Below the pieces are notes generated by a model that saw only the letters and a list, made by a program, of their open reading frames with translations, was not told the DNA's origin and did no database searches. A DNA stretch of 64,000 bases from an uncultured Gemmatimonadota bacterium (GTDB lineage: Bacteria > Gemmatimonadota > Gemmatimonadetes > Palauibacterales > Palauibacteraceae): positions 1,704 through 65,703 of the forward strand of contig CAYXHP010000022.1 of the NCBI GenBank assembly GCA_964465015.1, given 5' to 3'. The position numbers were made by a program, and so were the translations under genes. Each line of letters opens with the position of its first letter. Within the stretch, counting starts at the first letter, position 1. Shown here in pieces: positions 15,237-51,461 of the stretch.

Positions 15237-15238
15237 GC

Positions 15239-17888: not shown

Positions 17889-17891
17889 GCT

Positions 17892-22625: not shown

Positions 22626-23911
22626 AGCGCTCGTTGGGATTCCGGGACTATGTCTGGCTCGGTCTGACCGTGCTCGCGCTCCTCGCAGCGGCCGGAGAGA
22701 TCACTCTCCGCCTGGTACCGAGCCTCAGCCCGATCGCCGACGCGGAAAGCCGCATGCGTCGCCTACGTCCGGACCGAACGCCGATCTCGCGCAGAATCAA
22801 GAGGCAGCTGGTCGCGGCTCCCGCACGGTACAGGGAGGATCCGTACCTGGGCGCTGTACTGGCTCCGTCGGAGCACGACACTTACCGCACCCCGGATTTC
22901 GACTGGTCATGGGGCACTGACAGTCTCGGATTCGTCAACCACGAGCCCTGGCCCGAGCACCCGGACGCCGTGGTGCTGGGCAGCTCCCTGGTGATGGCTC
23001 CAGGCGTCGGAATGGACGGGCGGTTCTCAACGGTCCTGGAGCGCCGTTTCGGTCGCGCCATACTGAACCTGGGGTCCCCGGGGGCCGGTACCGAAATGGA
23101 GGATCGGATCGAGCAGAAGTTCGCCGAGCCGCTACGGCCGCCGCTGGTGATCGATGCCCTCTGGTTGGCGAGCGACATCGACAACACGCTCGAGTTCCAC
23201 GACTGGCTGAAGGAAGAGCCAGGTGAGGCGTTCACCCCGTATCGCATGAGCTACTGGAACTCGCACTCAGCCGCTACGCCGCCTGCCCGGTTGGCGCGCC
23301 TGCTCGACCATTCTGCGCTGTGGAGAGCCGTCCACCTGTCCGTGAAGGCGCTCGCGATCCGACAGCACATCCGGGAGGCGGTACTGCTCCCGCATGGCGA
23401 CACGATCTTCCTGTCGGTCCGGGTGCAGCATCGCCTGGCCCTGGGCCTCGACCGCGGCCCCGAGCCCGACATGAAGGACATCTTCCTGGAGCCGCTCCAG
23501 CGAATGCAGCGGCGGATCGAGGCCAGGGGCGGCCGCTTCCTGGTCGTCCTGCTGCCCAGCAAGGAGGCCATCTACGGGGCGGCGGCGTACCCGGCCGTCA
23601 TGCGAGCTCTCCGGCAGACTCGCCAGGGCCTGGCCCGCAGGGGCATCCAGTACCTGGACCTCACCGATGTATTCCGGGCGGCAGGTCGGGAGCCATCCCC
23701 ATACTATCCGCTGGACATCCACTACACGCGCCTCGGCAACCAGCTCATCGCCGACGCGATCGCCGACTGGATCGTGGCGAACCGGGCATTCGGTGTGCCG
23801 GCCCCGGCCCACGGCAAGTCTGCGCCTCCGTCCACCTCTCAGGCAGGACGGACCACCCGGGGGACCGCGGCTTCCGTCACGCTGAGGAGGCCTCGAACCG
23901 AGGGGCGCTGA
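22622..23911 (+). CDS. Membrane-anchored SGNH-hydrolase-like protein (paralog 2 of 4).
   Basis: ATG 22622 overlaps the upstream stop (ATGA). TM LGLTVLALLAAAG. VVLGSSLVMAPGVG and DIHYTRLGNQLIA blocks. Collinear similarity with 9062..10267. Confidence 0.7.
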   Translation: MKRSLGFRDYVWLGLTVLALLAAAGEITLRLVPSLSPIADAESRMRRLRPDRTPISRRIKRQLVAAPARYREDPYLGAVLAPSEHDTYRTPDFDWSWGTDSLGFVNHEPWPEHPDAVVLGSSLVMAPGVGMDGRFSTVLERRFGRAILNLGSPGAGTEMEDRIEQKFAEPLRPPLVIDALWLASDIDNTLEFHDWLKEEPGEAFTPYRMSYWNSHSAATPPARLARLLDHSALWRAVHLSVKALAIRQHIREAVLLPHGDTIFLSVRVQHRLALGLDRGPEPDMKDIFLEPLQRMQRRIEARGGRFLVVLLPSKEAIYGAAAYPAVMRALRQTRQGLARRGIQYLDLTDVFRAAGREPSPYYPLDIHYTRLGNQLIADAIADWIVANRAFGVPAPAHGKSAPPSTSQAGRTTRGTAASVTLRRPRTEGR

Positions 23912-24005: not shown

Positions 24006-24665
24006 ATGGATAGACGGTTGCGGACGCTCCTCCTCCTGGCGGCATCCGAGAAGTCCTATCTCTCGCGTATGGTGAGGCGCCTCAAACCTCGCGTCATCCC
24101 GGACGCGGACAAGCGACCGGAAGCCCAGGGTGATGGTCGCTATGCCGACCTCGAGAGCGGAGAAGAGGCTCGCTACGCCTTCGTCGCGGGGTACCTGAGC
24201 CAGGTGGGCGGCGATGGTTCTCCCTCGGTGCTCGACGTGGGTTGCGGTCCCGGTATCCTGCAGCCGTACCTGTCGCGGCACGGGTATGCACGCTACCTCG
24301 GGATAGACTTCGCTCCCAACAACATCGCCGTGGCCAGCCGCCGAGCCGACGAGAACACGAGCTTCGAACTGGCCCGGGCCACGGAGTATGAGCCGCTCGA
24401 CACCTTCGATCTCATCGTTTTCAACGAGATGCTGTACTTCCTCGACGATCCCGTCGGCTGCATTCGATCGTACATGCGGCATCTCGAGCCGGGAGGCCTG
24501 GTCGTCACCTCCAATACGATCGATTTCGCGACGCTGGGTCTCGTTCGCGCGCTTCGCACGAGTCTTCCCATCCTGGACGAGACCCTGGTCGTCAACGCGG
24601 CTGGATTCGGCTGGGTGATCCAGGCTGTCGGCGAGCGAAAGGGATCAGTCCTGGAGAGTCGCTGA
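24006..24665 (+). CDS. Class I SAM-dependent methyltransferase.
   Basis: Motif I VLDVGCGPG. Start taken at ATG 24006 (MDRRLRT). Upstream GTG 23952 lies in an AT-richer promoter-like stretch. The 3' end overlaps the convergent flippase gene by 21 nt. Confidence 0.7.
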   Translation: MDRRLRTLLLLAASEKSYLSRMVRRLKPRVIPDADKRPEAQGDGRYADLESGEEARYAFVAGYLSQVGGDGSPSVLDVGCGPGILQPYLSRHGYARYLGIDFAPNNIAVASRRADENTSFELARATEYEPLDTFDLIVFNEMLYFLDDPVGCIRSYMRHLEPGGLVVTSNTIDFATLGLVRALRTSLPILDETLVVNAAGFGWVIQAVGERKGSVLESR

Positions 24666-26243
24666 GCCGCCGGATACGGAGGCAGCCTCCTGCACCGCCC
24701 GGGCGCTCGGAATCACGAGGTCTTGAGCGTCGATTTCGCCCAGCAACCACAGCACTCCGAGATAGGCTGCGGCCAGCCCTGTGAGCTTCACGAGGACGAG
24801 CAGTCCCGACGTGTGCACGAAGATCGCCGGAACGGCCACCACGAGTGATGCGATCGCGACCCTGATCGATGTGCCGAGGGGAACGGGTGGCCCGAACTCG
24901 CGCCACGTCAGCACCGTGATTGTGACTCCGACGCCGAACATTCCGAGCATCAGCGAGAGAGCTGCGCCCATCGGGCCCATCGACGGAATCAGAAGGTAGT
25001 TCGCCAGGCCTACCACCGGCATGAAGGCGAGGAGGACGCCGGCCGTCGCACGCTGCCGGCCGGCAGCCATGAGACCGTAGGCCAGTGAGTCCAGGAGCGC
25101 GAACCATGCATAGGCGATCAGTTGCACGGTCAGGAAGATCCCTCCACTCGCGTAGTCGCTCGAGTAGACGAGGCTCATGAGGGAGGATGCGCTTCCCCCC
25201 AGGATGACCACCGCGGGAGCGCCCAGGATCAGGGAGAAGCGGCCCGCCTCGCGCACGTGCTCGTGTGCCCCTCTGCGGTTTCCCTCGGAGAGAGCCCAGG
25301 CGACAGAGGACAGCACGACGCCTGACTGGACGATGGGGATCACCGTCAGCATCTGGGAGATCTTGAGGGCTGCGACGTAGCGGCCGATGACGGCTGCGTC
25401 CCCGTGCCAGAGACTGCCCAGCGACCAGAGGTCGAGGCTCGTGAGGACGTTCAGACACACCACGAACATGCTGATCTGGCCTCCCAGGGAGACCACCTCG
25501 CGCATCAAGGACCACACCGGTCGAAAACCCTCCGGTGGGTATCGCACGACGAGGTAGAGGAGCGCGGCACAGGATGCCAGCACGTTGACCACGAGCGCGC
25601 GCCCGACCGACATCCCGAGGTAGACCAGCGCGATGGCTCCGAGGCACTTCGTCGCTCCCAGCAGCACCTGACTCGCCGCCAGGGGTCCGAATCGTCGACG
25701 TCCGTTGAGCGCCCCGGTGTATCCGGCGCAGGCAGCCGAGAAGGGAACATCCAGGAGGGCCAGGCGAAACAGGCGAGCGCCATCCGCGATGCCGAAGAGA
25801 TGGCCGAGCCGAGGCGCCAGGTACCACCCGATCGCAAAGACCAGGAGCGACGTCACGAGCAGCACGGCGCGCGCCGATTGCTCCACCTCCCTCGTCTGGG
25901 ACTGGTGATCGGGGATCAGCTTCCCCAGGGCTCCGGGTACGCCGATGAAGCTCAACATCTCCAGCCAGACGAGCACGGACAGCAGGAGGCCGTACACTCC
26001 GAAGGCCGCGGGCGCGAGGGTGCGGGCCAGTATCACGGAGCCCACATAGCTGAGCACCAGGAAGATGGCCCGCCCGACCAGCAGCTGTCGGGTTCCGCGC
26101 TTCTGGGTCAGCTGCGCCTCGTCTGGTGTGGACGAGCCGTCCGCCGCCCCGGTCATGCCGGGACTTTCGTCGGCCACGAGGTCTTTCACCTTCAGCTCCT
26201 GTTCATTCCGGACCGCATCGGCATGAACGCACCCGGCGCGCAT
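24645..26243 (-). CDS. Polysaccharide biosynthesis flippase (Wzx-like, MOP/oligosaccharidyl-lipid flippase family).
   Basis: About 12-14 TM helices. Conserved flippase-like layout. Start could be the internal ATG at 26156 (MTGAADG ...); the first 29 codons have somewhat lower GC3. Confidence 0.75.
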   Translation of the reverse strand: MRAGCVHADAVRNEQELKVKDLVADESPGMTGAADGSSTPDEAQLTQKRGTRQLLVGRAIFLVLSYVGSVILARTLAPAAFGVYGLLLSVLVWLEMLSFIGVPGALGKLIPDHQSQTREVEQSARAVLLVTSLLVFAIGWYLAPRLGHLFGIADGARLFRLALLDVPFSAACAGYTGALNGRRRFGPLAASQVLLGATKCLGAIALVYLGMSVGRALVVNVLASCAALLYLVVRYPPEGFRPVWSLMREVVSLGGQISMFVVCLNVLTSLDLWSLGSLWHGDAAVIGRYVAALKISQMLTVIPIVQSGVVLSSVAWALSEGNRRGAHEHVREAGRFSLILGAPAVVILGGSASSLMSLVYSSDYASGGIFLTVQLIAYAWFALLDSLAYGLMAAGRQRATAGVLLAFMPVVGLANYLLIPSMGPMGAALSLMLGMFGVGVTITVLTWREFGPPVPLGTSIRVAIASLVVAVPAIFVHTSGLLVLVKLTGLAAAYLGVLWLLGEIDAQDLVIPSARAVQEAASVSGGSATLQD

Positions 26244-26363
26244 CCAACGTGGGTGATGGCTCGGGGGTGGCTCCGCGTTTCGTGGTGCGGCGGCCCGCGC
26301 TCTGCCGCGCCCGGAAGGGAGCTAAGTGGGAGAAGGGAGTGACCGCTTCATGAACTCCCGGGG

Positions 26364-28009: not shown

Positions 28010-29620
28010 TCAGTTCGGCCGCCGCTTCAGGTGATCGGCCAGCCTCAGGGCCAGCGCGACGATCGTGAGCGTCGGGTTCTTGTGACTGGCAGACGGGAAG
28101 ACGGAGCTGCCCGCGACGTAGAGGCCGTGCACGCCGTGCACCCGACACTCCGTGTCGACGACCCCCGTCCGCGGACTGACGCTCATTCGCGTCGTGCCCA
28201 TGTGGTGCGACGCGTCCGTGAACATCAACTCCCCGGTTCCCGGGTCCAGCTCCCCGAGACCGGTCCTCTCGAGGCGCTGCTGTAGCACTGCCTGCAGGCG
28301 ACGCGCCGACCTGGCTACCTCACTGGCGATCTTCCAGTTCAGCACGAGCCGGTTCGCCCCGAGGGCATCACGCTCCCGCGAGAGGGTCACCCGGCTCTCC
28401 GGATCCGGCGGTTGCTCGCAGAAGTACACGACGACCCGGTCTCGCGCACTGCGGCCCGCGGTCAGCGCCTTCCGCGCGTGCCAGTACGCCCGGTAGAGGC
28501 CGTGCGGGACGAGCTCGCGGGGAGTGAGCAGGTAGAGAAGACCCGCGATGTCTCCCATGTCGGCGCCACCAATCTCCCATCGCCGTCCCGCGTGCCCCCG
28601 TCTCAGGAGCACCTTCATCGTTCGGATGAAGGACTGATAGCCCTTCTCCGTGTACTCCGAATGCTCCACCTCGAGCGTGGCGTAGTGATCGAGCAGCCCC
28701 TCCGTTCGTTGCACGTGGCGCGACAGCCCCAACCCGAACTGAACGCTGCCCTCGGAGATCGGGCAGCCTTCGAGCAGCGACAATCGCACCCCCTCGCGGA
28801 GACGCACTTTCCCGAACACGGCCCTTGGATGGTCCATGAAGTAGCGTCCCACCACGTCGTAGCGATTCCCGATGCCGCACTCCTGTCCATCACGTGAGAG
28901 CAGGAGGAGCCGTGGATTCTCCAGTCCACCACAAGCCAGCACCACGACCCTGGCCCGCACGCGGAGGTGGTTACGGCCGAGTGTGGCCGCCTCGACCGAC
29001 TCGACCGACGTACCCTCGGGATTGAGATGCACCTTGATGGCGTTGGCGTGGAGCACGAGCCTGGTGGTACGTGAGCTCCGCAGGGCCGACTTGTGCGCCG
29101 CGCCGAAGCGCTTCGGTCTCCTGGCCCACAGAGAGACGGTCGGATCGATCGCTTCGCCCCCGTACAGCGCCCGTTCGCCCGCGCTCAGGGCGTCCTCGTG
29201 GCGTCCCTCTTCGAACTGGTCGAAGGCCGGCAGCCCCAATATCCGCGAGGCCCTGGGGTAGTACGCGAGCAGCTCCGAGTAGGGAATGGGCCACCCGCTG
29301 TCGGGCACCCAGCTTCGCGGCTCCAGGTCTCGAGGCAGGAACCGCATGCTCCTGCCGGCCCAGAGATTACAGCTACCGCCGTAGTAGCGCGCTCGGGACA
29401 TGAAGTTACGACGAATCGGATATCCACGACTGTCGAGGTCGTGGAGGACCTGCGTGGCCTGCTCCGGCTGGAACCCACCTCCTTCCAGTACGCACACCTC
29501 GCGTCCGGAACGTTCGAGCTCGCCGGCGATCGTCAGGCCCGCGGCGCCGGCGCCGACCACGCAAACGTCCGCCGTGAGCTCGACATCCGGCTCGAGGTCG
29601 CGGGCGTCCAGAATGGTCAC
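28010..29620 (-). CDS. GMC-family FAD-dependent oxidoreductase (choline dehydrogenase-like).
   Basis: FAD-binding ADVCVVGAGAAGLTIAGELERSG. C-terminal GMC block GTTRMS ... HGVHGLYVAGSSVFPS. GTG start 29620 overlaps the stop of the upstream GH1 gene (GTGA). The N-terminal 350 aa of the long ORF were rejected. Confidence 0.8.
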   Translation of the reverse strand: MTILDARDLEPDVELTADVCVVGAGAAGLTIAGELERSGREVCVLEGGGFQPEQATQVLHDLDSRGYPIRRNFMSRARYYGGSCNLWAGRSMRFLPRDLEPRSWVPDSGWPIPYSELLAYYPRASRILGLPAFDQFEEGRHEDALSAGERALYGGEAIDPTVSLWARRPKRFGAAHKSALRSSRTTRLVLHANAIKVHLNPEGTSVESVEAATLGRNHLRVRARVVVLACGGLENPRLLLLSRDGQECGIGNRYDVVGRYFMDHPRAVFGKVRLREGVRLSLLEGCPISEGSVQFGLGLSRHVQRTEGLLDHYATLEVEHSEYTEKGYQSFIRTMKVLLRRGHAGRRWEIGGADMGDIAGLLYLLTPRELVPHGLYRAYWHARKALTAGRSARDRVVVYFCEQPPDPESRVTLSRERDALGANRLVLNWKIASEVARSARRLQAVLQQRLERTGLGELDPGTGELMFTDASHHMGTTRMSVSPRTGVVDTECRVHGVHGLYVAGSSVFPSASHKNPTLTIVALALRLADHLKRRPN

Positions 29621-30918
29621 GGGCGCGCGGCTCCTTCCGCGCCGCCCGCATGCCCGCCGCGTCGTGCGGAGCCAGCGGTCGACGGATGGGCCACTCCGAG
29701 CTCCGGACTTCGGCAGATGACGCCGAAGCGATCGACTATGGGACGGGCGGTCCTCCGCTGGGTGGCGAAGTCGACGCCGAAGAGTCCGAATCGCGGCGCA
29801 GTGCCGAGGGTCCACTCGTAGTTGTCCATCAGGGACCAGTAAAAATAGCCGCGTACGTCGACCCCCTCCTCCAGGGCTCGGGCCACGGCCTGTACATGGT
29901 CCACCAGGAACCGGGTTCTCAGCTCCTCGTCCGTCGTTGCGACACCGTTTTCGGTGATCAGAATCGGAACACCGTAGCGGGAGAATCGGTCGAGCGTGGT
30001 GAACAGCCCGTCCGGGTAGATCTCCCAGCCCATATCGCTGCGGGCTCCGCGGTCCGCGTGGTGGTCGGCCGTGCACTCGGTGCCCGCGAACGGTATCACC
30101 CCACGCCCCCGTCCGCTGACGATCGTCCGGGTGTAGTAGTTGATTCCCAGGAAGTCGAAGGACGGCTCGGGGCCCGCTCCCAGCAGACGGAAGAAGGCTC
30201 GGTTGAGGACCGCATCCCTGGTCCACGCCGCCAGCCTGTCCCGCGGGCTCGACGGATCGCATGGCTGGATCAGGGGAGCGCTGTGAGCGAAGCCGACCTT
30301 CGCGCTCGGGTCGGCGGAGCGCACCTTCGAACGGGCCGCCCGATGGGCGCGGGCCAGATGGATCGCCGCCCGAACGGCCCCTCCCCACGCCCTGCCGCGG
30401 CAGGGCGGCCAGTCGCCGACGACGTAGCCGTGTTTGACGTATACCGTAGGCTCGTTGATGGTGACCCAGTACCGGACCTTCCCGGCGAGCCGATCGGCCA
30501 GTCGGTCCACGAAACGCGCGAACAGGCTCACCGTCTCGCCTCGAGCCCACCCTCCTCTCTCCGCCACCCACGAGGGGAGGGTGAAGTGGAAGAGCGTCGG
30601 AACCGGCTCGAGCCCCCGGGCGAGAAGCGAATCGATCACGGCCTCGTAGTGATCGATCGCGTGACGATTCCACGACCCTTCGACGGGCTCAATTCGGCTC
30701 CACTCGATGGAGAAGCGATGAGCATTGTGGCCCGCTGCCAGGGCGAGATCGAAGTCGGAGTCGAAGAGCTCGAAGTGTCGGCACGCCGCACCCGACTTCT
30801 CGGGGAGCCTCCCCGCCTGCTCGTAGGCCCACCAATCGTTCCACCGGTTGGCCCCTTCGACCTGGTGGCTGGACGTGGCTGCCCCCCAGAGGAAGTCCTG
30901 GGGAACGGCGATCCGCAT
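29617..30918 (-). CDS. GH1-family beta-glucosidase.
   Basis: Starts MRIAVPQDFLWGAATSSHQVEGA. NEP acid/base TINEPTV and nucleophile ITENG motifs. Start at Met106 of ORF 29617..31233. Confidence 0.85.
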   Translation of the reverse strand: MRIAVPQDFLWGAATSSHQVEGANRWNDWWAYEQAGRLPEKSGAACRHFELFDSDFDLALAAGHNAHRFSIEWSRIEPVEGSWNRHAIDHYEAVIDSLLARGLEPVPTLFHFTLPSWVAERGGWARGETVSLFARFVDRLADRLAGKVRYWVTINEPTVYVKHGYVVGDWPPCRGRAWGGAVRAAIHLARAHRAARSKVRSADPSAKVGFAHSAPLIQPCDPSSPRDRLAAWTRDAVLNRAFFRLLGAGPEPSFDFLGINYYTRTIVSGRGRGVIPFAGTECTADHHADRGARSDMGWEIYPDGLFTTLDRFSRYGVPILITENGVATTDEELRTRFLVDHVQAVARALEEGVDVRGYFYWSLMDNYEWTLGTAPRFGLFGVDFATQRRTARPIVDRFGVICRSPELGVAHPSTAGSARRGGHAGGAEGAARP

Positions 30919-30997
30919 CGCCGTGCTCCCGAGCGCTGAGTTCAGGGCAGCCGGACAGTCGGCGGCGGGGGAAGGCGAGGTGACGGGCATTCGCACG

Positions 30998-32131
30998 TCA
31001 ATGGGAAAGTCCGCCGAGGCCATATTGCCCGGCGTCACGTTCGATCCGCGCCAGGACGGCGGCGGCAATGACACGGTATCCGGCCGCATCGGGATGACCA
31101 TCGACCTGGAAGAAGAGTCGCTTCTCCTGTCGGGCCTGCTCCTGCATGGGACCCGTGAGATCCAGATAGGGAATGCCCCGGCTGCGTAGTGCCTCGACCA
31201 GCGACGGGAGCAGCGGAGGGACCGTGTCTCCACGGAGCGGGAGGTACACGTCCTCCTTGGTCGGAAACACCAGGACGAGAAACGCCGTGCCGTGACTGGC
31301 TGCGATGGCCTGCGTCTTCTCGATGGATTCCATGACGCTCTGGAAGACGGGCTGATCCGGCTTGGCCAGCCCCACCTGATTCTCCAGGAACGAAGGCGCG
31401 AAGATGAGGCGGGTGTGGTCGGGAAACTCCATGGGTGGCGTGCTTCGGAACCGTCTCCTCAGGGTGCGGAAGGTCTCCGCCACGAACCAGTACACGTACG
31501 ATCGCTCGAGAATGGACTGCAGGAGACTGGGTGATCTTCCGTGACGGAACTTCCAGGTCGCGTAGCGTCCCGGACGGCCGGCGCGGAGCCAGCGATCGAA
31601 CTCCTGTTCGTCCTGCAGGTCGTTGCCCGGGAACAGTCCGAAGAGAAGGAGCTTGGGCTGAAAGGCCGTCCCGTACCGTTCGTAGACTCTCAAGTACTGC
31701 TTGGGCGCGTAGCCGGGCAGGCTCAGGTTGACGAGGCGGATGCCGGGGAGAGCTTCCTCGACGAGCGTCGACCACGTGGAATCGTAGTCCACGCCATAGC
31801 CGAAGCCCTCGGAGTCTCCGATCACGACGATCCCGGCCGAATCCGGCAAGGGGGATGGATTACGGAATCCGAGGGAGTCGGTCGCGTAGTCGAAACGTAC
31901 GTCGCCAGCGACTACCCGGCCGTGGTGATTGGGCGGATACAGGTAGCCAACATACGGGTCCGCTCTCTCGACATCGTCGTTGTCCTTCATCCAGTGGATC
32001 TTCACCCGTGCGGAGGCGGGCAGGTTGTTCGGGAACTCCCGAAGGAAGGCTTCCGTGCAGGCGAGTATGACGAGGACGCTGGCCAGAAGCAGTCCGAGAT
32101 TGACGAGGATGCGTTTCGCGGTCGAGGGCAT
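30998..32131 (-). CDS. Membrane-anchored SGNH-hydrolase-like protein (paralog 3 of 4).
   Basis: Start at internal ATG (MPSTAKRILVNLGLLLASVLVIL, a signal anchor). GDS block VVIGDSEGFGYG. DGHP block QVDGHPDAAGYRVIA. Confidence 0.7.
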   Translation of the reverse strand: MPSTAKRILVNLGLLLASVLVILACTEAFLREFPNNLPASARVKIHWMKDNDDVERADPYVGYLYPPNHHGRVVAGDVRFDYATDSLGFRNPSPLPDSAGIVVIGDSEGFGYGVDYDSTWSTLVEEALPGIRLVNLSLPGYAPKQYLRVYERYGTAFQPKLLLFGLFPGNDLQDEQEFDRWLRAGRPGRYATWKFRHGRSPSLLQSILERSYVYWFVAETFRTLRRRFRSTPPMEFPDHTRLIFAPSFLENQVGLAKPDQPVFQSVMESIEKTQAIAASHGTAFLVLVFPTKEDVYLPLRGDTVPPLLPSLVEALRSRGIPYLDLTGPMQEQARQEKRLFFQVDGHPDAAGYRVIAAAVLARIERDAGQYGLGGLSH

Positions 32132-32339
32132 CTTCCATCTCTGTCCGGGGCCGTGGCGAAGGCCTGAGGCTTCCCCCTGAAGACGGTTGCTCATACGACT
32201 GGGTCCTGCAGGTTGAATGCCGGACCAAAGTGAGGGATGAAGGCGGACGCGGCCATGCCGCGCGAGGAGTCCGGGCCGCGGCATCGGCAGCGTGCTTCTG
32301 AACTCGGGAGGTGCGGGGACGACGGACCTCGGTGCTCCA

Positions 32340-33869
32340 TCAAGCCTTGGGTCGAGGCGAGAGCGGTCGCGTGTCGTCGGCGTGCGACACTCGGTGTGTC
32401 GCCGCATCCCCACGTGCCGACGGGGTCGACGAGACGTGGGGTGCAGTCCGGCCTCCCGGCTCGAGCGGCACGGCGCGCGCGGGTCTCCAGAGACCATCGC
32501 GAGCGATGGCCTGGACCGAGAGGCTGGCGGCCAGGCGCTGTCCCGCATTGCTCCAGTGATCGTTACCGCCTCGGAGATAGAGCGCGGCCGGATCGTGCGA
32601 CCGGAAGGCCGGGAACAGGTTCAGGGTCGGGATGGAGTCCTGCCGGCCTATGGCTTCGACCACTGCCGACAGGTTGGACCTCTGGTAGGCCGGGTAGAGG
32701 GACGAGTCGACCCGGTAGACGTAGCCCGGCACCTCGTCCTCGGCCGTCGGGATGATCAGCAGGAGCATCGGGATCCCGTGGCTCCGAACCACGCTGTCCA
32801 TTCGGGTGATGACCCGATCCATGAGGGTCACCTTGTACCGGGCCGATGGTCCGTCCGGCGCCGCGCTGACGTCGGCATCGTAGCCGTCGGCGAGCAGGTT
32901 CGTGACCACATCGTCGTGTCCGAGGACGTAGTCCCGGTACTCGGCCTCGCGATCTCGCATCCACTCCCGGGTGGTCGTGGCGGAGGCCGGGTTGCCCTCG
33001 ACGGGAACCTCGTCGCCCTCCGGCACGAACCGGCTCGATTCGAGGCGGTCCACGGTGCGCTCGAACAGCTTCAGGACCAGCGGCCCGTGTCGCGCCATCA
33101 GGAACTTGCGGCGAACGGACCCGGCCAGCCTGTAGTGGTTCCGAACCAGCCGGCCCCCGGAGTCCAGTCGGAAGAGCTTGTTCCGGAGGAGGTCGCCGAA
33201 GTCGTTGCCGGTGTAGATGCTGACGATGACGAGGTCGGGCTTGAGCCGCGTCAGATCGCGCTCCATTCGGATGCACTCTTGATCGGGACCGTAGCCGGTC
33301 ACCCCAGCGTTCACGACCTCGACTGGCGTGCGGAAGTAGGCCCCGAGCATGCGCTGGAGCTGGCTCGTGTAGGTGTCGGCCTCAGCGGAGTACTCCGCGG
33401 CGATGAACGAGTCGCCGAACACCACGACCCGTCGTGAGCTGTCTGCCGACCCGCGCAGCTCGGGTCCGCGGAAGCCTTGCCGGTCGATGTGCACGCGGAT
33501 CGTCTGGCCGCCGTTGATCGGCAACCGATGATAGTCCCGGCTGGCCGCCGGTATGTACTCGAACAGGTCGTCCGACCGCAGCCGGAAGAGCGTGGAGAAG
33601 TCGTCGGGGACCGTGAGGCGGAGTCCGATTTCGGCGATCACCAGACCGATCAGGGACGAAGCGGTGAGCAGCAGCAGCCGCGTTCTCCACTTGCTGGACG
33701 CCAGGCCCGCGGCCACGACCACGGCGCCGAAGGCTGCCACCAGGATCTGAGACCATCCGGGACCGGATCGCTGAGGGCTCGATGGGCAGACGGTGACAGC
33801 GACCACGAGGACCAGCATCCCGAAGATGCCGAGGGCTATCCTGGTCGCCGGCCTCCGCTCCTGTTCCAT
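32340..33869 (-). CDS. Membrane-anchored SGNH-hydrolase-like protein (paralog 4 of 4) with a 3-TM N-terminus.
   Basis: Start at internal ATG (MEQERRPATRIALGIFGMLVLVV), with GGAGG 6 nt upstream on the minus strand. GDS block VVVFGDSFIAAEY. GGNDHWSNAG (DxxH). Confidence 0.65.
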   Translation of the reverse strand: MEQERRPATRIALGIFGMLVLVVAVTVCPSSPQRSGPGWSQILVAAFGAVVVAAGLASSKWRTRLLLLTASSLIGLVIAEIGLRLTVPDDFSTLFRLRSDDLFEYIPAASRDYHRLPINGGQTIRVHIDRQGFRGPELRGSADSSRRVVVFGDSFIAAEYSAEADTYTSQLQRMLGAYFRTPVEVVNAGVTGYGPDQECIRMERDLTRLKPDLVIVSIYTGNDFGDLLRNKLFRLDSGGRLVRNHYRLAGSVRRKFLMARHGPLVLKLFERTVDRLESSRFVPEGDEVPVEGNPASATTTREWMRDREAEYRDYVLGHDDVVTNLLADGYDADVSAAPDGPSARYKVTLMDRVITRMDSVVRSHGIPMLLLIIPTAEDEVPGYVYRVDSSLYPAYQRSNLSAVVEAIGRQDSIPTLNLFPAFRSHDPAALYLRGGNDHWSNAGQRLAASLSVQAIARDGLWRPARAVPLEPGGRTAPHVSSTPSARGDAATHRVSHADDTRPLSPRPKA

Positions 33870-34024
33870 GCAGCCTCCGGAAATCTCGGGTTTGCCATCC
33901 TCCGGCCGTGACTTCCCGTGCATGCATGCAGCGTGCGAGTCTCGGTCCAGGCCGGTCCCGATCCGAGAGGGGAGGCGTCGCCGACGGCGCGGCCATCCGC
34001 AGACCCCAAGTGACATAACGAGAA

Positions 34025-34040
34025 GGGCACATTCCGTGCG
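34025..34040 (+). promoter_or_regulatory. Candidate sigma-54 -24/-12 promoter in the divergent intergenic region upstream of the carbamoyltransferase operon.
   Basis: gGGCACattccGTGCg with GG-N10-GC spacing. Sits 300 nt upstream of ATG 34341 in an AT-richer 470-bp gap. A sigma-70-like TTGAAA-N16-TAGATA (34162..34189) is also present. Confidence 0.35.
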
Positions 34041-34340
34041 GCTGTGGCCGGCCCGACTCGGCTGTGCCGGTCGCAGCGGATGGCGGTGTGCGGCTCCGGC
34101 GTCTGTTGCAATGTGCCTACAAGATCGGCAGACCGCCGCGGCGAGCCCCGAACGCAGGACTTTGAAAAGCTATTCATCCCAACTAGATACGCTCATCACC
34201 TGTTGGACGGAGGAATGGCGTACTTATCTTGCACAGCGTGGCTGCCCGAGAAGAACGCGCGGCCGGCCGCCGTGCGAAATCACGCTGATCCGTTCGGCGC
34301 ACGTGTGGCCCCGGCGAGGGTTCAGGAAGGACGTTCATAC

Positions 34341-36308
34341 ATGGCTTCAGACCTTTCGATGCAGACCCGGCATTCCTCCGGGAGCGCCGGCTCGCCCGGC
34401 AGCCCGCGCTACGTTCTGGGCCTGTCGGCCTTCTACCACGACAGCGCCGCGTGCCTGCTCCGGGACGGGGAGATCGTGGCCGCTGCTCAGGAGGAGCGCT
34501 TCACGAGAGAGAAGGGAGACGCCTCGTACCCTTCCCACGCCGTGGAGTATTGCCTGAAGGAAGGCGGCATCTCGGTCGCCGATCTCGAGGTCGTCGCTTT
34601 CTACGACAAGCCGCTCCTGAAGTTCGAGCGAATCCTGGAGACGTATGTGGGCATCGCTCCCAGGGGCTTCCGCTCCTTCCTGAAGGCGGGACCGCTGTGG
34701 ATCAAAGAGAAACTCTTCATCGACCGCGACCTGGCGGACCAGCTGGGCTGGGAGGGCGACATCCTCTACGCCGAGCATCACGAGTCCCACGCGGCCAGCG
34801 CATTCTACCCGTCACCGTTCGACGAAGCCGCGATCGTCACGATGGACGGCGTCGGCGAATGGGCCACTGCGTCCATCGGAGTGGGGCGGGGCAGCGAGAT
34901 CGAGCTCCTGCGGGACCTTCGGTGGCCCGACTCCCTGGGACTGCTCTACTCGGCCTTCACGTACTACACGGGCTTCAAGGTCAACTCGGGCGAATACAAG
35001 GTGATGGGGCTGGCGCCTTACGGCGAGCCCAGGTTCGTCGACCTCATCCTCGGCGAGCTGATGGACTTGCGCGACGACGGCTCCTTCCGGTTGAACCAGG
35101 AGTACTTCGACTACCTGGGCGGACTGACGATGACGAGCCGCAAGTTCGATGAGCTGTTCGGTGGCCCGCCGCGTTCGCCCGAATCGAAGATCACGCAGCG
35201 GGAGATGGACCTGGCCCGATCGGTCCAGGAGGTGTGCGAGGAAGTCATGCTCCGGATGGTACGCACCGCGCACCGTGAGACCGGGCTGTCGAACCTCTGC
35301 CTGGCGGGCGGGGTGGCGCTGAACTGCGTGGGGAACGGCCGCATCCTCCGGGAAGGGCCTTACGAGGAGCTGTGGATCCAGCCGGCCGCCGGCGATGCCG
35401 GAGGCGCGCTGGGCGCGGCGCAGCTCGCGTGGCACCGCCACCTGGGGCAGGAGCGCGCGCCGGCCTCCGTGTACGCGGTGAGTGCCGGCGCGGTCGAAGA
35501 GCGGCAAGTCGCCGAGGCCGGCGGTGGCACCGCGGTGGCGACGCGCCCGCGGGCCCGGGACCGGATGCGAGCCGCCTGCCTGGGCCCCTCCTTCAGCCCT
35601 GAAGAGATCGAGACCTATCTGGCGACGCGCGGCGCACCCGCCCACAAGCTCGATCGCGAGGCGTTGATCGAGCGGACCGCGGAGCTCCTCTCAGACGGCA
35701 ACGTGGTGGGCTGGTTCGCCGGCCGCATGGAGTTCGGGCCACGTGCCCTGGGATCGAGGAGCATCCTGGGCGACCCGCGAAGCCCCGAGATGCAGCGCAC
35801 GATGAACCTCAAGATCAAGTTCAGGGAGAGCTTCCGTCCATTCGCGCCGAGCGTCTTGCTGGAGCGGGTCCAGGACTACTTCGACCTGGATCGTGAGTCT
35901 CCCTACATGCTCCTGGTCGCGCCCGTGCGCGAGGAGCGCAGGTGTCCTCCGGCGGAGGGCGACTCGGAGCTGTGGGGCATCGAGCGACTGAATCGCCCAC
36001 GCTCGGACATCCCCGCCGTGACGCACGTGGACTACTCGGCTCGCGTGCAGACCGTCTCGGCGGAAGACAACCCGGCCTACCACGCTCTCCTGTCCGCCTT
36101 CGAGCGGCGCACGGGATGCGGCTTGCTCGTGAACACATCGTTCAACGTGAGGGGCGAACCGATCGTCTGTTCGCCTCGGGACGCGTATCGCTGCTTCATG
36201 CGGACGCACATGGATTGCCTGGTCCTGTGGCCGTACCTCCTCTTCAAGGAGGAGCAGCCGGAATGGCACGAGGAGGGAGATTGGAGAGAGAAGATACCGC
36301 TCGACTGA
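34341..36308 (+). CDS. Carbamoyltransferase (NodU/CmcH family; probably O-carbamoylation of a sugar).
   Basis: RBS AGGAAGGA then ATG 34341. Carbam_trans_N (VLGLSAFYHDSAACLL ... HHESHAASAF) and C-terminal domain. The first 99 codons of ORF 34044.. have non-coding character. Confidence 0.85.
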   Translation: MASDLSMQTRHSSGSAGSPGSPRYVLGLSAFYHDSAACLLRDGEIVAAAQEERFTREKGDASYPSHAVEYCLKEGGISVADLEVVAFYDKPLLKFERILETYVGIAPRGFRSFLKAGPLWIKEKLFIDRDLADQLGWEGDILYAEHHESHAASAFYPSPFDEAAIVTMDGVGEWATASIGVGRGSEIELLRDLRWPDSLGLLYSAFTYYTGFKVNSGEYKVMGLAPYGEPRFVDLILGELMDLRDDGSFRLNQEYFDYLGGLTMTSRKFDELFGGPPRSPESKITQREMDLARSVQEVCEEVMLRMVRTAHRETGLSNLCLAGGVALNCVGNGRILREGPYEELWIQPAAGDAGGALGAAQLAWHRHLGQERAPASVYAVSAGAVEERQVAEAGGGTAVATRPRARDRMRAACLGPSFSPEEIETYLATRGAPAHKLDREALIERTAELLSDGNVVGWFAGRMEFGPRALGSRSILGDPRSPEMQRTMNLKIKFRESFRPFAPSVLLERVQDYFDLDRESPYMLLVAPVREERRCPPAEGDSELWGIERLNRPRSDIPAVTHVDYSARVQTVSAEDNPAYHALLSAFERRTGCGLLVNTSFNVRGEPIVCSPRDAYRCFMRTHMDCLVLWPYLLFKEEQPEWHEEGDWREKIPLD

Positions 36309-36685
36309 CGCCGACCGAGGGGCGCAAGTTCGGCCTGACGGTCGGTGCCGCCTTCCTGGTCCTGGGAGGCATATCCTACTGGCGCGGCCACCGAATCCCC
36401 GTGTTCGTCCTCGGCGGTCTCGGCCTGCTCCTCGTGCTCGGCGGCCTGGTCGTGCCAGGTCGGCTCGGGCCCGTCGAGCGCGCCTGGATGGGCCTGGCGA
36501 AGGCGATCTCACGGGTCACCACGCCCATCTTCATGGCGGTCGTATACTTCCTGGTCCTCACGCCGGCCGGTGTCATCGTCCGTTGGGTTGGACACGACCC
36601 GCTGCTGCACGAGGCGGAAGAGGGAAGCTACTGGAGGTCGCGCTCCATGTCGGAAGGCAAGAGCGACCTCACGCGACAGTTCTAG
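36263..36685 (+). CDS. SxtJ-like small membrane protein.
   Basis: EGRKFGLTVGAAFLVLGGISYW and two more TM helices, typical of the SxtJ family that co-occurs with carbamoyltransferases. Start uncertain: ATG 36263 overlaps the upstream gene by 46 nt. Confidence 0.55.
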   Translation: MARGGRLEREDTARLTPTEGRKFGLTVGAAFLVLGGISYWRGHRIPVFVLGGLGLLLVLGGLVVPGRLGPVERAWMGLAKAISRVTTPIFMAVVYFLVLTPAGVIVRWVGHDPLLHEAEEGSYWRSRSMSEGKSDLTRQF

Positions 36686-36702
36686 GACGGAGGAGCGTAG
36701 AC

Positions 36703-36861
36703 ATGGCTCGACGTTCGATGGCGGGCGAGATTTGGGACTTCCTGAAGGTTCGCAAGAAGTGGTGGCTCCTGCCCATCATTGTCATGCTCGCGGCGGTGGG
36801 CGCGCTGATCGTGTTCGCGCAGGGCTCGGCGCTGGCGCCGTTCATCTACACGATCTTCTAG
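36703..36861 (+). CDS. DUF5989-like small membrane protein (52 aa).
   Basis: MAGEIWDFLKVRKKWWLLPIIVMLAAVGALIVFAQG is the conserved small protein found after carbamoyltransferase and SxtJ. RBS GGAGCG. Internal Met of ORF 36583..36861. Confidence 0.6.
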   Translation: MARRSMAGEIWDFLKVRKKWWLLPIIVMLAAVGALIVFAQGSALAPFIYTIF

Positions 36862-36864
36862 CTT

Positions 36865-38514
36865 CTAGCGTCCCGCGGCGGGTGTCTCTCCAGGGCCCAT
36901 GGCCCGGGAGGACGCGTCTCCCCCGCGGCCGGTGACGGCGGCCAGGATGGCCTGTGCGCGGGTCCGGGCCGCCGGCGAGGCTGGCCCTCGAACTGCGAGC
37001 TCGGTTCGTCGCTCGAGGAGGTCGGCGATCGTGCATGCCATCTCGCACTCGGCGCCGTAGGCCAGTTGCGCGCCGAACACCGGAGAATCGACCTCGATCC
37101 TCTCCAGGAGCTCCGGCCGGTCGGCGGCGAGGGCCAGGACGTCCCGGAACCTTGCGCCGTGCGTATGGAGAAGGTGGGCGCGACAGTCGGTCGGCAGAAA
37201 GCCGACCTCCTCGTCGGCCTGCCGGGTCAGCTCGCTCCAAGACGAAAGCCGGCCACCCGGCAACGGGGTGTCGGCGGTTCGACACGGCGGGACGCTGTTC
37301 TCCAGGAAGCGAAACACGCGACCGACCGTCTCCTGGGCCACCCACCTCGCCGTGGTGAACTTGACCGGTAAGACCGAAAAGGCGCCCGGTGTGCCGGACG
37401 ACGCGTGGTCGGTGATGCGGTCATGGCGCAGCAGGCGCACCGGCTCGGTGGGTGCGGTGCGCAGCGCCGGCAGTAACCCGTGCTGCACCCCCAGTACCTG
37501 GTCGGATCGGATGCGAAGTCCGGTACCCGGCGCGTTCACTTCCTCCAGGAAGCGCTCCACGTAGAGAGCCGTGTCGAGGACGGCCGAAGGTGCCATCCGG
37601 TAGTGGGCCGTTCCGATGAGAGTTCGGCTTCGCCACGGCGCCACGAAGAGCCGGCGGGCACCCATGTGCACGACGGAGCCGGGGTCGGATGTCCTGCCAG
37701 CCACGGTGAAGGCGACATCGTGAACGGGGTGGTCGACCACCAGGTTGAGGGCCACCGACAGCGTCACATCCGGGCTGGCCCCGTCCAGGCCCCACTGACC
37801 GGCGAGGTGCAGCGCCTGCGCTCCCGTGGCGTTGACGAGCGATCTCGTATGTATGTCGAGCGCGCCGCCGGAGAGCAGGTCCGTACAGCGAACGCGCAGG
37901 CCGTCGCGGCTGGCCGTGATCGCCCGGGCTTCCACGTGGTTGGCGAGCGCGGCGCCGTCCTGCTCCGCCGCGCACACGATGTCGAGCACGAGGCGGGTGG
38001 GACTGTACATCTGGGCGTCGTGGAAGACCACGGCTCCGGTGAGGTCCGGGTCGTCGATCTCCGGGGCCCGTTCCAGGGCTTCCCGCCGTGAGAGAGCGTG
38101 GCCCGGCGGCAGGTGCCGGGCCGGGTCGAGTCCGCGATTCCGGTCCCGGCCCATTAGGTCGATCACGGCGAGGGCCGCACGAAGGAGAGGCCGGCGCGCC
38201 GCGCCCCTTCGATACGTGGGCACCAGGAAGGGGAGCGGTTCCACCAGGTGGGGCGCCACACGCAGCCACATCGAGCGCTCGCGTATGGAGCGTCGCGCGC
38301 CGAGCAGCTCCAACCGCTGGAGATAGCGAAGGCCGCCGTGAATCGTCCGAAAGCACTGCGCCGATGCGCCCGCTCCGAAGTCCGCCCGTTCTACGAGACC
38401 CACCCGGAGACCGCGCTGTGCCGCGTCGCGAGCGACCCACGCTCCGGTCACCCCTCCACCGATCACCAGAAGGTCCAGCAGGTCGTCCGACAGTCCGGTG
38501 AGGTCTCGTATCAT
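36865..38514 (-). CDS. FAD-dependent glycerol-3-phosphate dehydrogenase-like oxidoreductase (GlpD/DAO family).
   Basis: N-terminal LVIGGGVTGAWVARDAAQRGLRVGLVE ... FGAGASAQCFRTIHGGLRYL dinucleotide-binding and GlpD-like blocks. Convergent with the DUF5989 gene. Confidence 0.75.
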   Translation of the reverse strand: MIRDLTGLSDDLLDLLVIGGGVTGAWVARDAAQRGLRVGLVERADFGAGASAQCFRTIHGGLRYLQRLELLGARRSIRERSMWLRVAPHLVEPLPFLVPTYRRGAARRPLLRAALAVIDLMGRDRNRGLDPARHLPPGHALSRREALERAPEIDDPDLTGAVVFHDAQMYSPTRLVLDIVCAAEQDGAALANHVEARAITASRDGLRVRCTDLLSGGALDIHTRSLVNATGAQALHLAGQWGLDGASPDVTLSVALNLVVDHPVHDVAFTVAGRTSDPGSVVHMGARRLFVAPWRSRTLIGTAHYRMAPSAVLDTALYVERFLEEVNAPGTGLRIRSDQVLGVQHGLLPALRTAPTEPVRLLRHDRITDHASSGTPGAFSVLPVKFTTARWVAQETVGRVFRFLENSVPPCRTADTPLPGGRLSSWSELTRQADEEVGFLPTDCRAHLLHTHGARFRDVLALAADRPELLERIEVDSPVFGAQLAYGAECEMACTIADLLERRTELAVRGPASPAARTRAQAILAAVTGRGGDASSRAMGPGETPAAGR

Positions 38515-50612: not shown

Positions 50613-50809
50613 TCGTCGAGGTCCGGAGCCAAAGCTCCGGCTTCAGGCCGGGATGAGACGGCGAGCGACCGGTGGACGAGATGAAGGCGGGAGCCCCGGT
50701 GGGGCACCGCGCGATCGTTCACCGAGAACTCGGAGACTCACCCGTGAGCACCTACTCGCTTGCCCCCGTCGACGGCGGGGCGTCCACGAGCTCCCGGATC
50801 CACCCCGGT

Positions 50810-51445: not shown

Positions 51446-51461
51446 CATTCCATCCGGGGAC

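What the first reader, a model, noticed from the sequence alone, without database searches (positions are those of the whole stretch)
34341..36861. Carbamoyltransferase, SxtJ-like and DUF5989-like gene triad embedded in the EPS locus
The NodU/CmcH-type carbamoyltransferase is followed by the two small membrane proteins that commonly accompany it (an SxtJ-like protein whose start overlaps the carbamoyltransferase 3' end, and a 52-aa DUF5989-like protein). This suggests the polysaccharide, or a lipid-linked precursor, is O-carbamoylated. Carbamoylated EPS is rare and chemically distinctive.
Basis: partly seen in the sequence, partly recalled or inferred. Interest (0 to 1): 0.55.

Follow-up and report, generated by a model that had tools for sequence, protein, structure and literature searches.

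The report
Carbamoyltransferase cassette in an EPS locus
The cassette is common and already named, but nobody has worked out how it functions.

Summary
There is a TobZ/NovN-type O-carbamoyltransferase (34341-36308), an SxtJ-family three-helix membrane protein (36263-36685, overlapping the enzyme's 3' end by 46 nt) and a 52-aa DUF5989 protein (36703-36861). All three score above Pfam cut-offs. They lie in an exosortase-type Wzx/Wzy polysaccharide locus.

The triad is the widespread sxtI-sxtJ-sxtK arrangement, which NCBI annotation already names. It was contiguous in 73 of 83 DUF5989-seeded sources from more than 10 phyla. Both partners were present in 51 of 64 carbamoyltransferase-seeded metagenome loci.

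It is by far the commonest immediate neighbour, lying directly adjacent in 28 of 72 loci. It sometimes sits inside the triad, and it parallels sxtL.

The most likely mechanism is that the small proteins hold the ATP- and carbamoyl-phosphate-dependent enzyme at the inner membrane. There it would carbamoylate a lipid-linked glycan before flipping. This is inferred, not shown.

The acceptor is unknown. The cassette also occurs away from glycan genes, for example on Sinorhizobium meliloti pSymB.

Verdict: a new member of a known kind, of moderate interest.

The parts
34341..36308 (+). O-carbamoyltransferase, 655 aa (N-terminal domain of the Kae1/ASKHA type, C-terminal domain of the YrdC type)
   Evidence: PF02543 scores 316.7 bits and PF16861 248.5 bits. 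The best solved relatives are NovN 9s2t (2e-92), GdmN and TobZ. The HHESH, MDGVGE, GDAGG and GPRALGSRS motifs are present. The protein is 49-68% identical to triad-linked carbamoyltransferases of other phyla.
36263..36685 (+). SxtJ-family small membrane protein, 140 aa, three predicted helices
   Evidence: PF19588 scores 32.0 bits against a cut-off of 24.4. The ATG is preceded by AAGGAGGAG and the gene overlaps the carbamoyltransferase by 46 nt. The AlphaFold2 model has mean pLDDT 79 with helices at 17-40, 44-67 and 69-108. Invariant residues are G20, R21, F23, W40, R41, P65, W75, M76, S83, T86, T87, P88, P101, R107 and F140.
36703..36861 (+). DUF5989 (SxtK-like) single-span membrane peptide, 52 aa
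   Evidence: PF19451 scores 89.4 bits. GGAGGAG lies upstream and the gene starts 17 nt after the SxtJ stop. Invariant features are R17, K18, K19, W21, L22, P24 and AQGSALAPF (residues 39-47), then Y49, T50 and F52. The AlphaFold2 model has helices at 6-17 and 20-51. Identity across phyla is 53-88%.
32340..34016 (-). Membrane-anchored SGNH/GDSL hydrolase, divergently transcribed. It is the frequent fourth partner, in the position that sxtL holds in saxitoxin clusters. The true start may be the internal ATG at 33869.
   Evidence: Lipase_GDSL_2 scores E=4e-12, with a weak ALGX match. Three hydrophobic segments precede the GDS motif. G151, S153, N186 and D222 are invariant and H437 is nearly invariant in the family alignment. 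Homologues lie directly adjacent to the triad in 28 of 72 loci. This is the top family among 120 immediate neighbours (21 members, against 5 for the next distinct family).
31001..32620 (-). Second SGNH/AlgX-like paralogue, next to the first
   Evidence: ALGX scores 1.6e-8 and Lipase_GDSL_2 3.7e-7. It matches the local SGNH-partner model at 2.9e-117.
34017..34340 (.). Divergent intergenic region between the SGNH gene and the carbamoyltransferase operon
   Evidence: No sigma-70 consensus promoter, no convincing terminator and no Rfam family was found here.

Best explanation
This is a conserved, horizontally mobile envelope-decoration cassette.

The carbamoyltransferase is cytoplasmic. By homology with TobZ, NovN and GdmN, its C-terminal domain makes carbamoyl-AMP from carbamoyl phosphate and ATP. 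Its N-terminal metal-containing domain then transfers the carbamoyl group to a hydroxyl.

The enzyme is translationally coupled to two small inner-membrane proteins, a three-helix SxtJ protein and a single-span DUF5989 protein. These most likely form a membrane platform. The platform would hold the enzyme at the cytoplasmic face of the inner membrane so that it O-carbamoylates a lipid-linked sugar. In this window that sugar would be a repeat unit of the exosortase-type Wzx/Wzy polysaccharide, modified before it is flipped.

The divergently encoded SGNH hydrolase is anchored by N-terminal helices, with its catalytic domain predicted to lie outside the cytoplasm. It would act on the same glycan after export, as an O-acyl or carbamoyl esterase or editor.

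Shown: the gene identities, motifs, synteny, coupling and genomic context. Inferred: formation of a complex, the membrane topology, the acceptor, and the role of the SGNH protein.
For: - Domains and catalytic motifs are intact.
- The carbamoyltransferase/SxtJ overlap recurs. 37 of 68 gene pairs show the identical -21 nt offset. Both small genes in the window have their own Shine-Dalgarno sequence.
- The triad is contiguous in 73 of 83 DUF5989-seeded sources from Gemmatimonadota, Acidobacteriota, Omnitrophota, Peregrinibacteria, Nitrospirota, Ignavibacteria, Planctomycetota and others. Both partners are present in 51 of 64 carbamoyltransferase-seeded metagenome loci.
- Recurrent neighbours are glycan-assembly genes. 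The window itself is an exosortase/Wzx/Wzy locus. The close relatives L001 and L002 keep the triad inside polysaccharide loci.
- Where DUF5989 occurs without a carbamoyltransferase, it still follows a cytoplasmic glycan enzyme, a methyltransferase-GT2 fusion next to Wzy_C, or lies next to a GT2 gene. This fits a general membrane-adaptor role rather than carbamoyl-specific chemistry.
- All 28 adjacent SGNH partners have one or three N-terminal hydrophobic segments, and the family consensus has RR near its N-terminus. In some loci the SGNH gene sits inside the triad (L087: enzyme-SGNH-SxtJ-DUF5989; L108: enzyme-SxtJ-SGNH-DUF5989).
- There is a precedent for carbamoylated envelope glycans: the putative carbamoyltransferase WapO (PA5005) and the carbamoylated heptose of the Pseudomonas LPS core (PMC8005017).
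Against: - No physical interaction, topology or acceptor was measured.
- The triad-linked enzyme is 49-68% identical across phyla. That is unusually conserved for an enzyme expected to recognise variable repeat units.
- The cassette occurs without nearby glycan genes on S. meliloti pSymB, and its context in Gemmatirosa is not syntenic with the window.
- In saxitoxin clusters the same trio acts on a small soluble alkaloid (PMC2679770).
- 6 of 64 carbamoyltransferase-seeded loci lack both partners nearby.
- The charge distribution of SxtJ does not settle its orientation.
Confidence: 0.5

Rival explanations
1. The acceptor is not this locus's polysaccharide. Instead it is a molecule common to many bacteria, such as an LPS or lipid component, a cell-wall glycan or a common carrier-linked sugar. 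The cassette would then be self-contained, and its position in the EPS locus would reflect clustering of envelope genes rather than substrate.
For: - The enzyme is 49-68% identical and DUF5989 53-88% identical across phyla, including candidate-phyla-radiation bacteria.
- The four-gene cassette stands alone on S. meliloti pSymB.
- Its context in Gemmatirosa is different.
- 20 of 58 well-flanked loci show no glycan-assembly neighbour with the local models.
Against: - Two thirds of well-flanked loci do have glycan-assembly neighbours, and these belong to varied pathways (GT9, exosortase, Wzy).
- Within Gemmatimonadaceae, the block Wzx-GMC oxidoreductase-GH1-SGNH-carbamoyltransferase-SxtJ-DUF5989 is kept.
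Confidence: 0.2
2. The enzyme works on a soluble substrate, either a nucleotide sugar or a small metabolite as in saxitoxin. SxtJ and DUF5989 would then have a different role, such as export, sensing or stabilisation.
For: - sxtI-sxtJ-sxtK act in a pathway for a soluble alkaloid (PMC2679770, PMC2885083).
- All solved relatives (NovN, GdmN, TobZ) act on soluble small molecules.
Against: - The gene overlap with the membrane partners is strongly conserved.
- The cassette is predominantly associated with Wzx/Wzy-type and glycosyltransferase genes.
- DUF5989 is also paired with other membrane-proximal glycan enzymes.
Confidence: 0.15
3. The cassette is a carbamoyl relay across the membrane. The cytoplasmic enzyme would load a carbamoyl group that SxtJ/DUF5989 pass across the membrane. 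The extracytoplasmic SGNH protein would then place it on the exported polymer, by analogy with MBOAT or AT3 plus SGNH O-acetylation systems (AlgI/AlgJ/AlgX, PatA/PatB).
For: - The predicted layout is cytoplasmic enzyme, membrane proteins and an outside-facing SGNH domain.
- AlgJ and AlgX are among the solved matches of the SGNH partners.
- The window has four SGNH/AlgX-like genes, yet no MBOAT or AT3 was found.
- The SGNH gene is sometimes interleaved within the triad.
Against: - SxtJ and DUF5989 have no invariant histidine or other obvious catalytic residue, and they total only four helices.
- DUF5989 also occurs with methyltransferase-GT2 enzymes.
- From general enzymology, carbamoyl-serine intermediates are usually long-lived, which makes an SGNH carbamoyl transferase chemically awkward.
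- About half of the loci have no SGNH gene nearby.
Confidence: 0.08

Closest known systems
sxtI-sxtJ-sxtK(-sxtL) of cyanobacterial saxitoxin gene clusters
   Same: - The gene order is the same: carbamoyltransferase, then a roughly 134-aa SxtJ, then a roughly 54-aa SxtK.
- The sizes are similar (PMC2679770 lists 405 bp and 165 bp; here 423 bp and 159 bp).
- A GDSL/SGNH gene lies next to the trio.
- The window's middle protein matches Pfam SxtJ.
   Different: - The substrate there is a soluble alkaloid, whereas here the setting is a polysaccharide locus.
- The SGNH gene here is divergent rather than downstream.
- The equivalence of DUF5989 with SxtK, and of the SGNH protein with SxtL, rests on size, position and family name. 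No direct alignment was made, because no Sxt sequences were available here.
- The roles of SxtJ, SxtK and SxtL are themselves untested (PMC2885083; bioRxiv 10.64898/2026.06.11.731795).
TobZ / NovN / GdmN O-carbamoyltransferases (solved structures)
   Same: The two-domain architecture and the motifs are shared, with E-values of 2e-92 to 7e-72. The same two-step chemistry through carbamoyl-AMP is therefore expected.
   Different: Those enzymes tailor antibiotics. None of the papers read here describes SxtJ- or DUF5989-type partners for them, and this was not tested. The window enzyme also has an extra low-complexity linker between its two domains, at about residues 365-410.
WapO (PA5005), putative carbamoyltransferase of the Pseudomonas LPS core; NodU/NolO of Nod factors
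   Same: These are precedents for O-carbamoylation of envelope or secreted glycans by this enzyme family (PMC8005017).
   Different: The window protein is not a NodU orthologue: NF041651 scores 129 bits against a cut-off of 1000. Its relationship to WapO was not tested. Whether those systems have small membrane partners was not examined.
MBOAT/AT3 plus SGNH O-acetylation systems (AlgI-AlgJ-AlgX, PatA-PatB)
   Same: A cytoplasmic donor, membrane component(s) and an outside-facing SGNH or AlgX-like protein, all within polysaccharide loci.
   Different: The window has no MBOAT or AT3 protein. The membrane components here are tiny and lack a conserved histidine. The resemblance is one of layout only.

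Membership tests
TobZ/NovN/NodU-type O-carbamoyltransferase (PF02543 + PF16861) | Both Pfam domains score above their gathering cut-offs, in N-to-C order | tested here: met
   316.7 bits against 24, and 248.5 bits against 27
TobZ/NovN/NodU-type O-carbamoyltransferase (PF02543 + PF16861) | Metal-binding HxxxH plus two Asp motifs in the N-terminal domain, and GPRALGxRS in the C-terminal domain | tested here: met
   HHESH, MDGVGE and GDAGG align with the corresponding NovN residues, and FGPRALGSRS is present. The motif is cited as the sxtI catalytic site in bioRxiv 10.64898/2026.06.11.731795.
TobZ/NovN/NodU-type O-carbamoyltransferase (PF02543 + PF16861) | Carbamoyl transfer from carbamoyl phosphate and ATP to a hydroxyl | not testable with these tools
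   Needs an enzyme assay
NodU (NCBIfam NF041651 equivalog) | Score at or above the curated cut-off | tested here: not met
   129.1 bits against a cut-off of 1000
SxtJ family (PF19588) | Score above the gathering cut-off | tested here: met
   32.0 bits against 24.4. Homologues are named 'SxtJ family membrane protein'.
SxtJ family (PF19588) | A membrane protein of about 130-140 aa encoded immediately after, or overlapping, a carbamoyltransferase gene | tested here: met
   140 aa with a 46-nt overlap and three helices. The arrangement is conserved across loci.
DUF5989 (PF19451) | Score above the gathering cut-off, and the invariant RKKWWLxP and AQGSALAPF motifs | tested here: met
   89.4 bits against 27; invariant columns listed
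DUF5989 = SxtK | Direct sequence similarity to SxtK (ABI75101) | not tested
   No SxtK sequence was available. The equivalence is inferred from size (54 against 52 aa) and position after sxtJ (PMC2679770).
Four-gene cassette of the sxtI-J-K-L type | A GDSL/SGNH hydrolase gene adjacent to the trio | tested here: met
   32340-34016(-) matches Lipase_GDSL_2. Such a gene is directly adjacent in 28 of 72 loci and is the top neighbouring family.
Exosortase (XrtA/EpsH) polysaccharide locus | Exosortase plus XrtA-associated marker genes | tested here: met
   PF09721 scores 214.9 bits at 6609-7502. TIGR03006 scores 335 against 276, and TIGR03019 272.7 against 260.
MBOAT/AT3-SGNH acyl relay | A polytopic acyltransferase (MBOAT or AT3) in the locus | tested here: not met
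   The local MBOAT model found no hit in the window. The only proteins with four or more predicted helices are Wzx, Wzy, the exosortase and a 153-aa ORF. The Pfam scans show none.

The most novel reading that the evidence does not exclude
The enzyme, SxtJ, DUF5989 and the outside-facing SGNH protein form one machine spanning the membrane. It would deliver carbamoyl groups (or couple their addition and removal) across the inner membrane. This would be a carbamoyl counterpart of the MBOAT/AT3-SGNH O-acetylation systems, built from a four-helix membrane core, and present in more than ten phyla.
Probability: 0.08. Interest if true: 0.8.

Novelty: new member of a known kind. Interest (0 to 1): 0.4.

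Why it matters
The functions of SxtJ and SxtK have been unknown since the saxitoxin cluster was described (PMC2885083). The library searched here holds no paper that mentions DUF5989.

This window, together with the surveys, shows three things:
- The trio is mainly a cassette of envelope-glycan loci spread across many phyla.
- It usually travels with a membrane-anchored SGNH hydrolase.
- The same four genes exist in cultivable and genetically tractable bacteria: Sinorhizobium meliloti pSymB, S. fredii NGR234, Gemmatirosa kalamazoonensis and Paludisphaera borealis.

That makes the question testable. It also suggests that O-carbamoylated bacterial glycans may be much commoner than the chemistry literature implies. 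For this particular window the result is an ordinary, well-annotated member of that cassette.

Tried and rejected
- **Structure search.** A Foldseek search of the SxtJ model against the PDB gave nothing with E below 2.
- **Regulatory and RNA scans.** The promoter/terminator scan and the Rfam scan of 33800-37100 gave nothing usable. A mir-2114 match at 27.6 bits against a cut-off of 94 is chance.
- **Exact look-up.** The window's carbamoyltransferase was not on record for exact look-up.
- **Possible fusion.** P0399 is a possible natural carbamoyltransferase-SxtJ fusion, which would place the SxtJ N-terminus in the cytoplasm. It is a single sequence on one 4.4-kb contig, so a frameshift artefact cannot be excluded. 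Other long SxtJ hits are visibly frameshifted. No clean fusion was found in the surveyed loci.
- **Literature.** A search for DUF5989 found 0 papers. Searches for carbamoylated O-antigen or EPS together with carbamoyltransferase genes found almost nothing relevant. A search for the S. meliloti cassette returned no paper whose title or abstract concerned it, and none was opened. The original 2008 saxitoxin cluster paper was looked up by a PMC id recalled from memory, and no paper is held under that id.
- **Topology.** Deciding the orientation of SxtJ from its charge distribution was inconclusive.
- **Dismissed reading.** I considered, and rejected, that the small ORFs are chance ORFs of a GC-rich genome. 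Their cross-phylum conservation and their scores against the family models rule this out.
Full report
**Observation.** The window is GC-rich (about 68%). Its closest protein relatives come from Gemmatimonadaceae and other Gemmatimonadota genomes assembled from metagenomes.

The ORF in the reported interval is best read as starting at the ATG at 34341. It encodes a 655-aa protein with Carbam_trans_N (E=3e-94) and Carbam_trans_C (E=3e-74). In another frame, an ATG at 36263 is preceded by AAGGAGGAG. It opens a 140-aa ORF ending at 36685 that overlaps the enzyme's last 46 nt and matches Pfam SxtJ (32.0 bits, cut-off 24.4). Seventeen nucleotides after its stop, an ATG at 36703 is preceded by GGAGGAG. 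It opens a 52-aa ORF that matches DUF5989 (89.4 bits, cut-off 27).

**Setting.** Pfam and NCBIfam scans of the rest of the window show a large exosortase-type polysaccharide locus. It contains:
- Poly_export (2274-3440) and exosortase EpsH (6609-7502);
- the Wzx flippase (24648-26321) and a Wzy_C protein (58208-59983);
- many GT2 and GT4 glycosyltransferases, and two asparagine-synthase-like amidotransferases;
- DegT, a hexapeptide acetyltransferase and polysaccharide deacetylases;
- the XrtA-system deacetylase (TIGR03006) and the FemAB-type XrtA-associated protein (TIGR03019), both above their curated cut-offs.

There are four SGNH/AlgX-like genes: 9032-10264(+), 22229-23908(+), 31001-32620(-) and 32340-34016(-). 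The last is transcribed divergently from the carbamoyltransferase. No MBOAT or AT3 acyltransferase was found. The gene downstream of DUF5989 is convergent and encodes an FAD oxidoreductase resembling glycerol-3-phosphate dehydrogenase (36865-38514). It is not a conserved neighbour.

**How general the triad is.** DUF5989 is a very large and very conserved family. The homologue search saturated at 8000 clusters, and 21 of the 52 positions are invariant in a sample of 26 sequences.

I seeded a scan of species-representative genomes with DUF5989. It returned 80 loci from Gemmatimonadota, Acidobacteriota, Omnitrophota, Peregrinibacteria, Ignavibacteria, Nitrospirota, Planctomycetota, deltaproteobacterial lineages, KSB1 and others. 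Counting the window and two look-ups (L001, L002), 73 of 83 sources have the enzyme, SxtJ and DUF5989 contiguous. Most are in that order. About eight are in the order DUF5989-SxtJ-enzyme or SxtJ-DUF5989-enzyme.

That sample is biased by its seed, so I also seeded a metagenome scan with the carbamoyltransferase. Of 64 loci with enough downstream sequence, 51 have both partners and 6 have neither. The enzyme/SxtJ overlap is itself conserved: 37 of 68 pairs show the same -21 nt offset.

Relative to the window proteins, identity across phyla is 49-68% for the enzyme, 53-88% for DUF5989 and 24-67% for SxtJ. A profile search of 1.84 billion representatives found 12,614 SxtJ-family clusters at 50% identity.

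**A fourth partner.** I clustered all ORFs within 6 kb of the triad. No neighbouring family was universal, but SGNH/GDSL proteins stood out.
- With a model built from them, an SGNH gene lies within 600 nt of the triad in 28 of 72 loci, and within 6 kb in 11 more.
- Among 120 immediate neighbours scanned against Pfam, Lipase_GDSL_2 matched 21. The next distinct family, GT9, matched 5.
- In several phyla the SGNH gene follows DUF5989 on the same strand with a gap of 0-4 nt. This is the sxtI-J-K-L order.
- In two metagenome loci it sits inside the triad (L087: enzyme-SGNH-SxtJ-DUF5989; L108: enzyme-SxtJ-SGNH-DUF5989).
- All 28 adjacent SGNH proteins have one or three hydrophobic segments 55-160 residues before the GDS motif. 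The family consensus has RR near its N-terminus.
- The Ser, Asn and Asp positions are invariant and the His is nearly invariant.

With an odd number of spans and, on the positive-inside rule, a cytoplasmic N-terminus, the catalytic domain is predicted to face outward. This is an inference.

The closest solved relatives by profile search are CgnD, AlgJ and AlgX. CgnD (E=1.5e-19) is a hydrolase, annotated as a putative esterase, from the crocagin cluster, which also encodes a carbamoyltransferase (PMC10070186). AlgJ (E=2.8e-15) and AlgX (E=5.6e-11) are named by their depositors as alginate biosynthesis proteins, and Pfam describes the AlgX domain as an SGNH-like acetyltransferase.

**Context across phyla.** The recurrent neighbours are GT4, GT2, GT9, Wzy_C, exosortase, DegT, NAD-epimerase, polysaccharide deacetylase, asparagine-synthase-like and, in five loci, MBOAT genes. 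Local models give a lower bound: 38 of 58 loci with at least 8 kb of flank have such a gene within 6 kb.

Among annotated plasmids:
- Paludisphaera borealis carries exosortase, EpsI and a tyrosine autokinase next to genes that NCBI names 'carbamoyltransferase', 'SxtJ family membrane protein' and 'DUF5989 family protein'.
- On S. meliloti pSymB the four genes (SGNH divergent, then SxtJ-DUF5989-enzyme) stand among unrelated genes.
- On Gemmatirosa kalamazoonensis plasmid 2 the cassette is present, with the enzyme 69% identical, but the surroundings are not syntenic with the window.

Where DUF5989 occurs without the enzyme and SxtJ, it follows a methyltransferase-GT2 fusion and precedes a Wzy_C-TPR protein (L056, L080), or lies next to a GT2 gene (L040, L075).

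**Structure.** The enzyme aligns over both domains with NovN, GdmN and TobZ and keeps the HxxxH, Asp and GPRALGxRS motifs. It needs ATP and carbamoyl phosphate (established for TobZ-type enzymes; my own knowledge). It must therefore work in the cytoplasm.

The AlphaFold2 model of SxtJ (47-sequence alignment, mean pLDDT 79) has three helices, at 17-40, 44-67 and a long one at 69-108. A fold search found no solved relative. The DUF5989 model (mean pLDDT 83) is a short amphipathic helix (6-17), then the RKK motif, then a 32-residue helix that includes the invariant C-terminal AQGSALAPFIYTIF. Charge distribution does not settle the orientation of SxtJ. One CT-SxtJ fusion (P0399) would place the SxtJ N-terminus in the cytoplasm, but it rests on a single short contig.

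**Mechanism.** The best-supported reading has three parts.
- The enzyme is made together with SxtJ and DUF5989 and held by them at the inner membrane.
- There it carbamoylates a lipid-linked glycan before Wzx flips it.
- The outward-facing SGNH protein acts on the same glycan afterwards.

I put this at about 0.5. The rivals are a conserved acceptor unrelated to the locus's polysaccharide (0.2), a soluble acceptor with the small proteins doing something else (0.15), and a carbamoyl relay across the membrane analogous to MBOAT-SGNH O-acetylation (0.08). The relay is attractive because of the layout and the absence of MBOAT/AT3 from the window. It is weakened by three points: the small proteins have no conserved catalytic residue, DUF5989 also occurs with non-carbamoyl enzymes, and the SGNH gene is missing from about half of the loci.

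**Comparison with what is known.** The trio is the sxtI-sxtJ-sxtK arrangement of saxitoxin clusters. [quoted passage not shown] Glycan carbamoylation has a precedent in the carbamoylated heptose of the Pseudomonas LPS core and its putative carbamoyltransferase WapO (PMC8005017). The window protein is not a NodU orthologue.

**Verdict.** This is a new member of a known and already annotated kind. Its interest is moderate. It comes mainly from the fact that the function of the small partners has been open since the saxitoxin cluster was described, and could now be tested in cultivable carriers.

Noticed in passing
window 9032-10264(+), 22229-23908(+), 31001-32620(-), 32340-34016(-): The locus has four SGNH/AlgX-like paralogues, but no MBOAT or AT3 acyltransferase was found anywhere in the 64 kb. 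The source of any acyl donor for them is unexplained.
   Followed up: partly
L056 8428-10156 and L080 8478-12574: In two Nitrospirota loci DUF5989 occurs without a carbamoyltransferase or SxtJ. It lies directly after a 469-aa methyltransferase-GT2 fusion, and in L080 it lies before a Wzy_C-TPR protein. So DUF5989 is not tied to carbamoyl chemistry.
   Followed up: partly
L083 (S. meliloti ABS7 pSymB, record 483075-487277): A model rhizobium carries the four-gene cassette (SGNH divergent, then SxtJ-like, DUF5989, carbamoyltransferase) away from obvious polysaccharide genes. The two small genes are annotated only as hypothetical. No carbamoylated S. meliloti glycan is known to me.
   Followed up: partly
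L087 4356-6253; L108 5800-7634: The SGNH gene is inserted inside the triad in two loci (enzyme-SGNH-SxtJ-DUF5989 and enzyme-SxtJ-SGNH-DUF5989).
   Followed up: yes
P0399 (JGI contig of 4.4 kb): The C-terminus of a carbamoyltransferase continues in frame into a full SxtJ sequence. This is either a natural fusion or a frameshift artefact, and only one copy is on record.
   Followed up: partly
PDB 8a2n (CgnD) against alignment A4: The closest solved relative of the triad-adjacent SGNH proteins is CgnD of the crocagin cluster. That cluster also encodes a carbamoyltransferase (CgnI). In vitro CgnD was a very slow 'protease', and its authors raised the possibility that carbamoylation comes first. 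Whether that cluster has SxtJ/DUF5989 genes was not checked.
   Followed up: no
window 14338-14796(+): A 153-aa ORF with four predicted membrane helices and coding-like GC3 has no Pfam match. It lies between a glycosyltransferase gene and a phosphodiesterase-like gene.
   Followed up: no
window 14810-16813(+) and 17889-19499(+): Two type I phosphodiesterase/nucleotide pyrophosphatase-family genes lie inside the polysaccharide locus. One is also next to the triad region in the relative L001.
   Followed up: no
window 28013-31458(-); L001 5283-8301: A GMC oxidoreductase and a family-1 glycoside hydrolase sit between the flippase and the SGNH/carbamoyltransferase genes. This block is kept in a related Gemmatimonadaceae genome, which hints at an oxidised or trimmed sugar in the polymer.
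   Followed up: no
window 50657-54013(+): Two Big_2/Big_1 Ig-like domain proteins lie in a stretch of lower GC content (about 0.64-0.65 against 0.68) at the edge of the locus.
   Followed up: no
L041 10001-10404; L035 7203-7346 and 10001-10144; L052 3617-3769: Some loci carry two DUF5989 copies. They are tandem in a Peregrinibacteria genome, and in other cases a second copy lies a few kb away.
   Followed up: no
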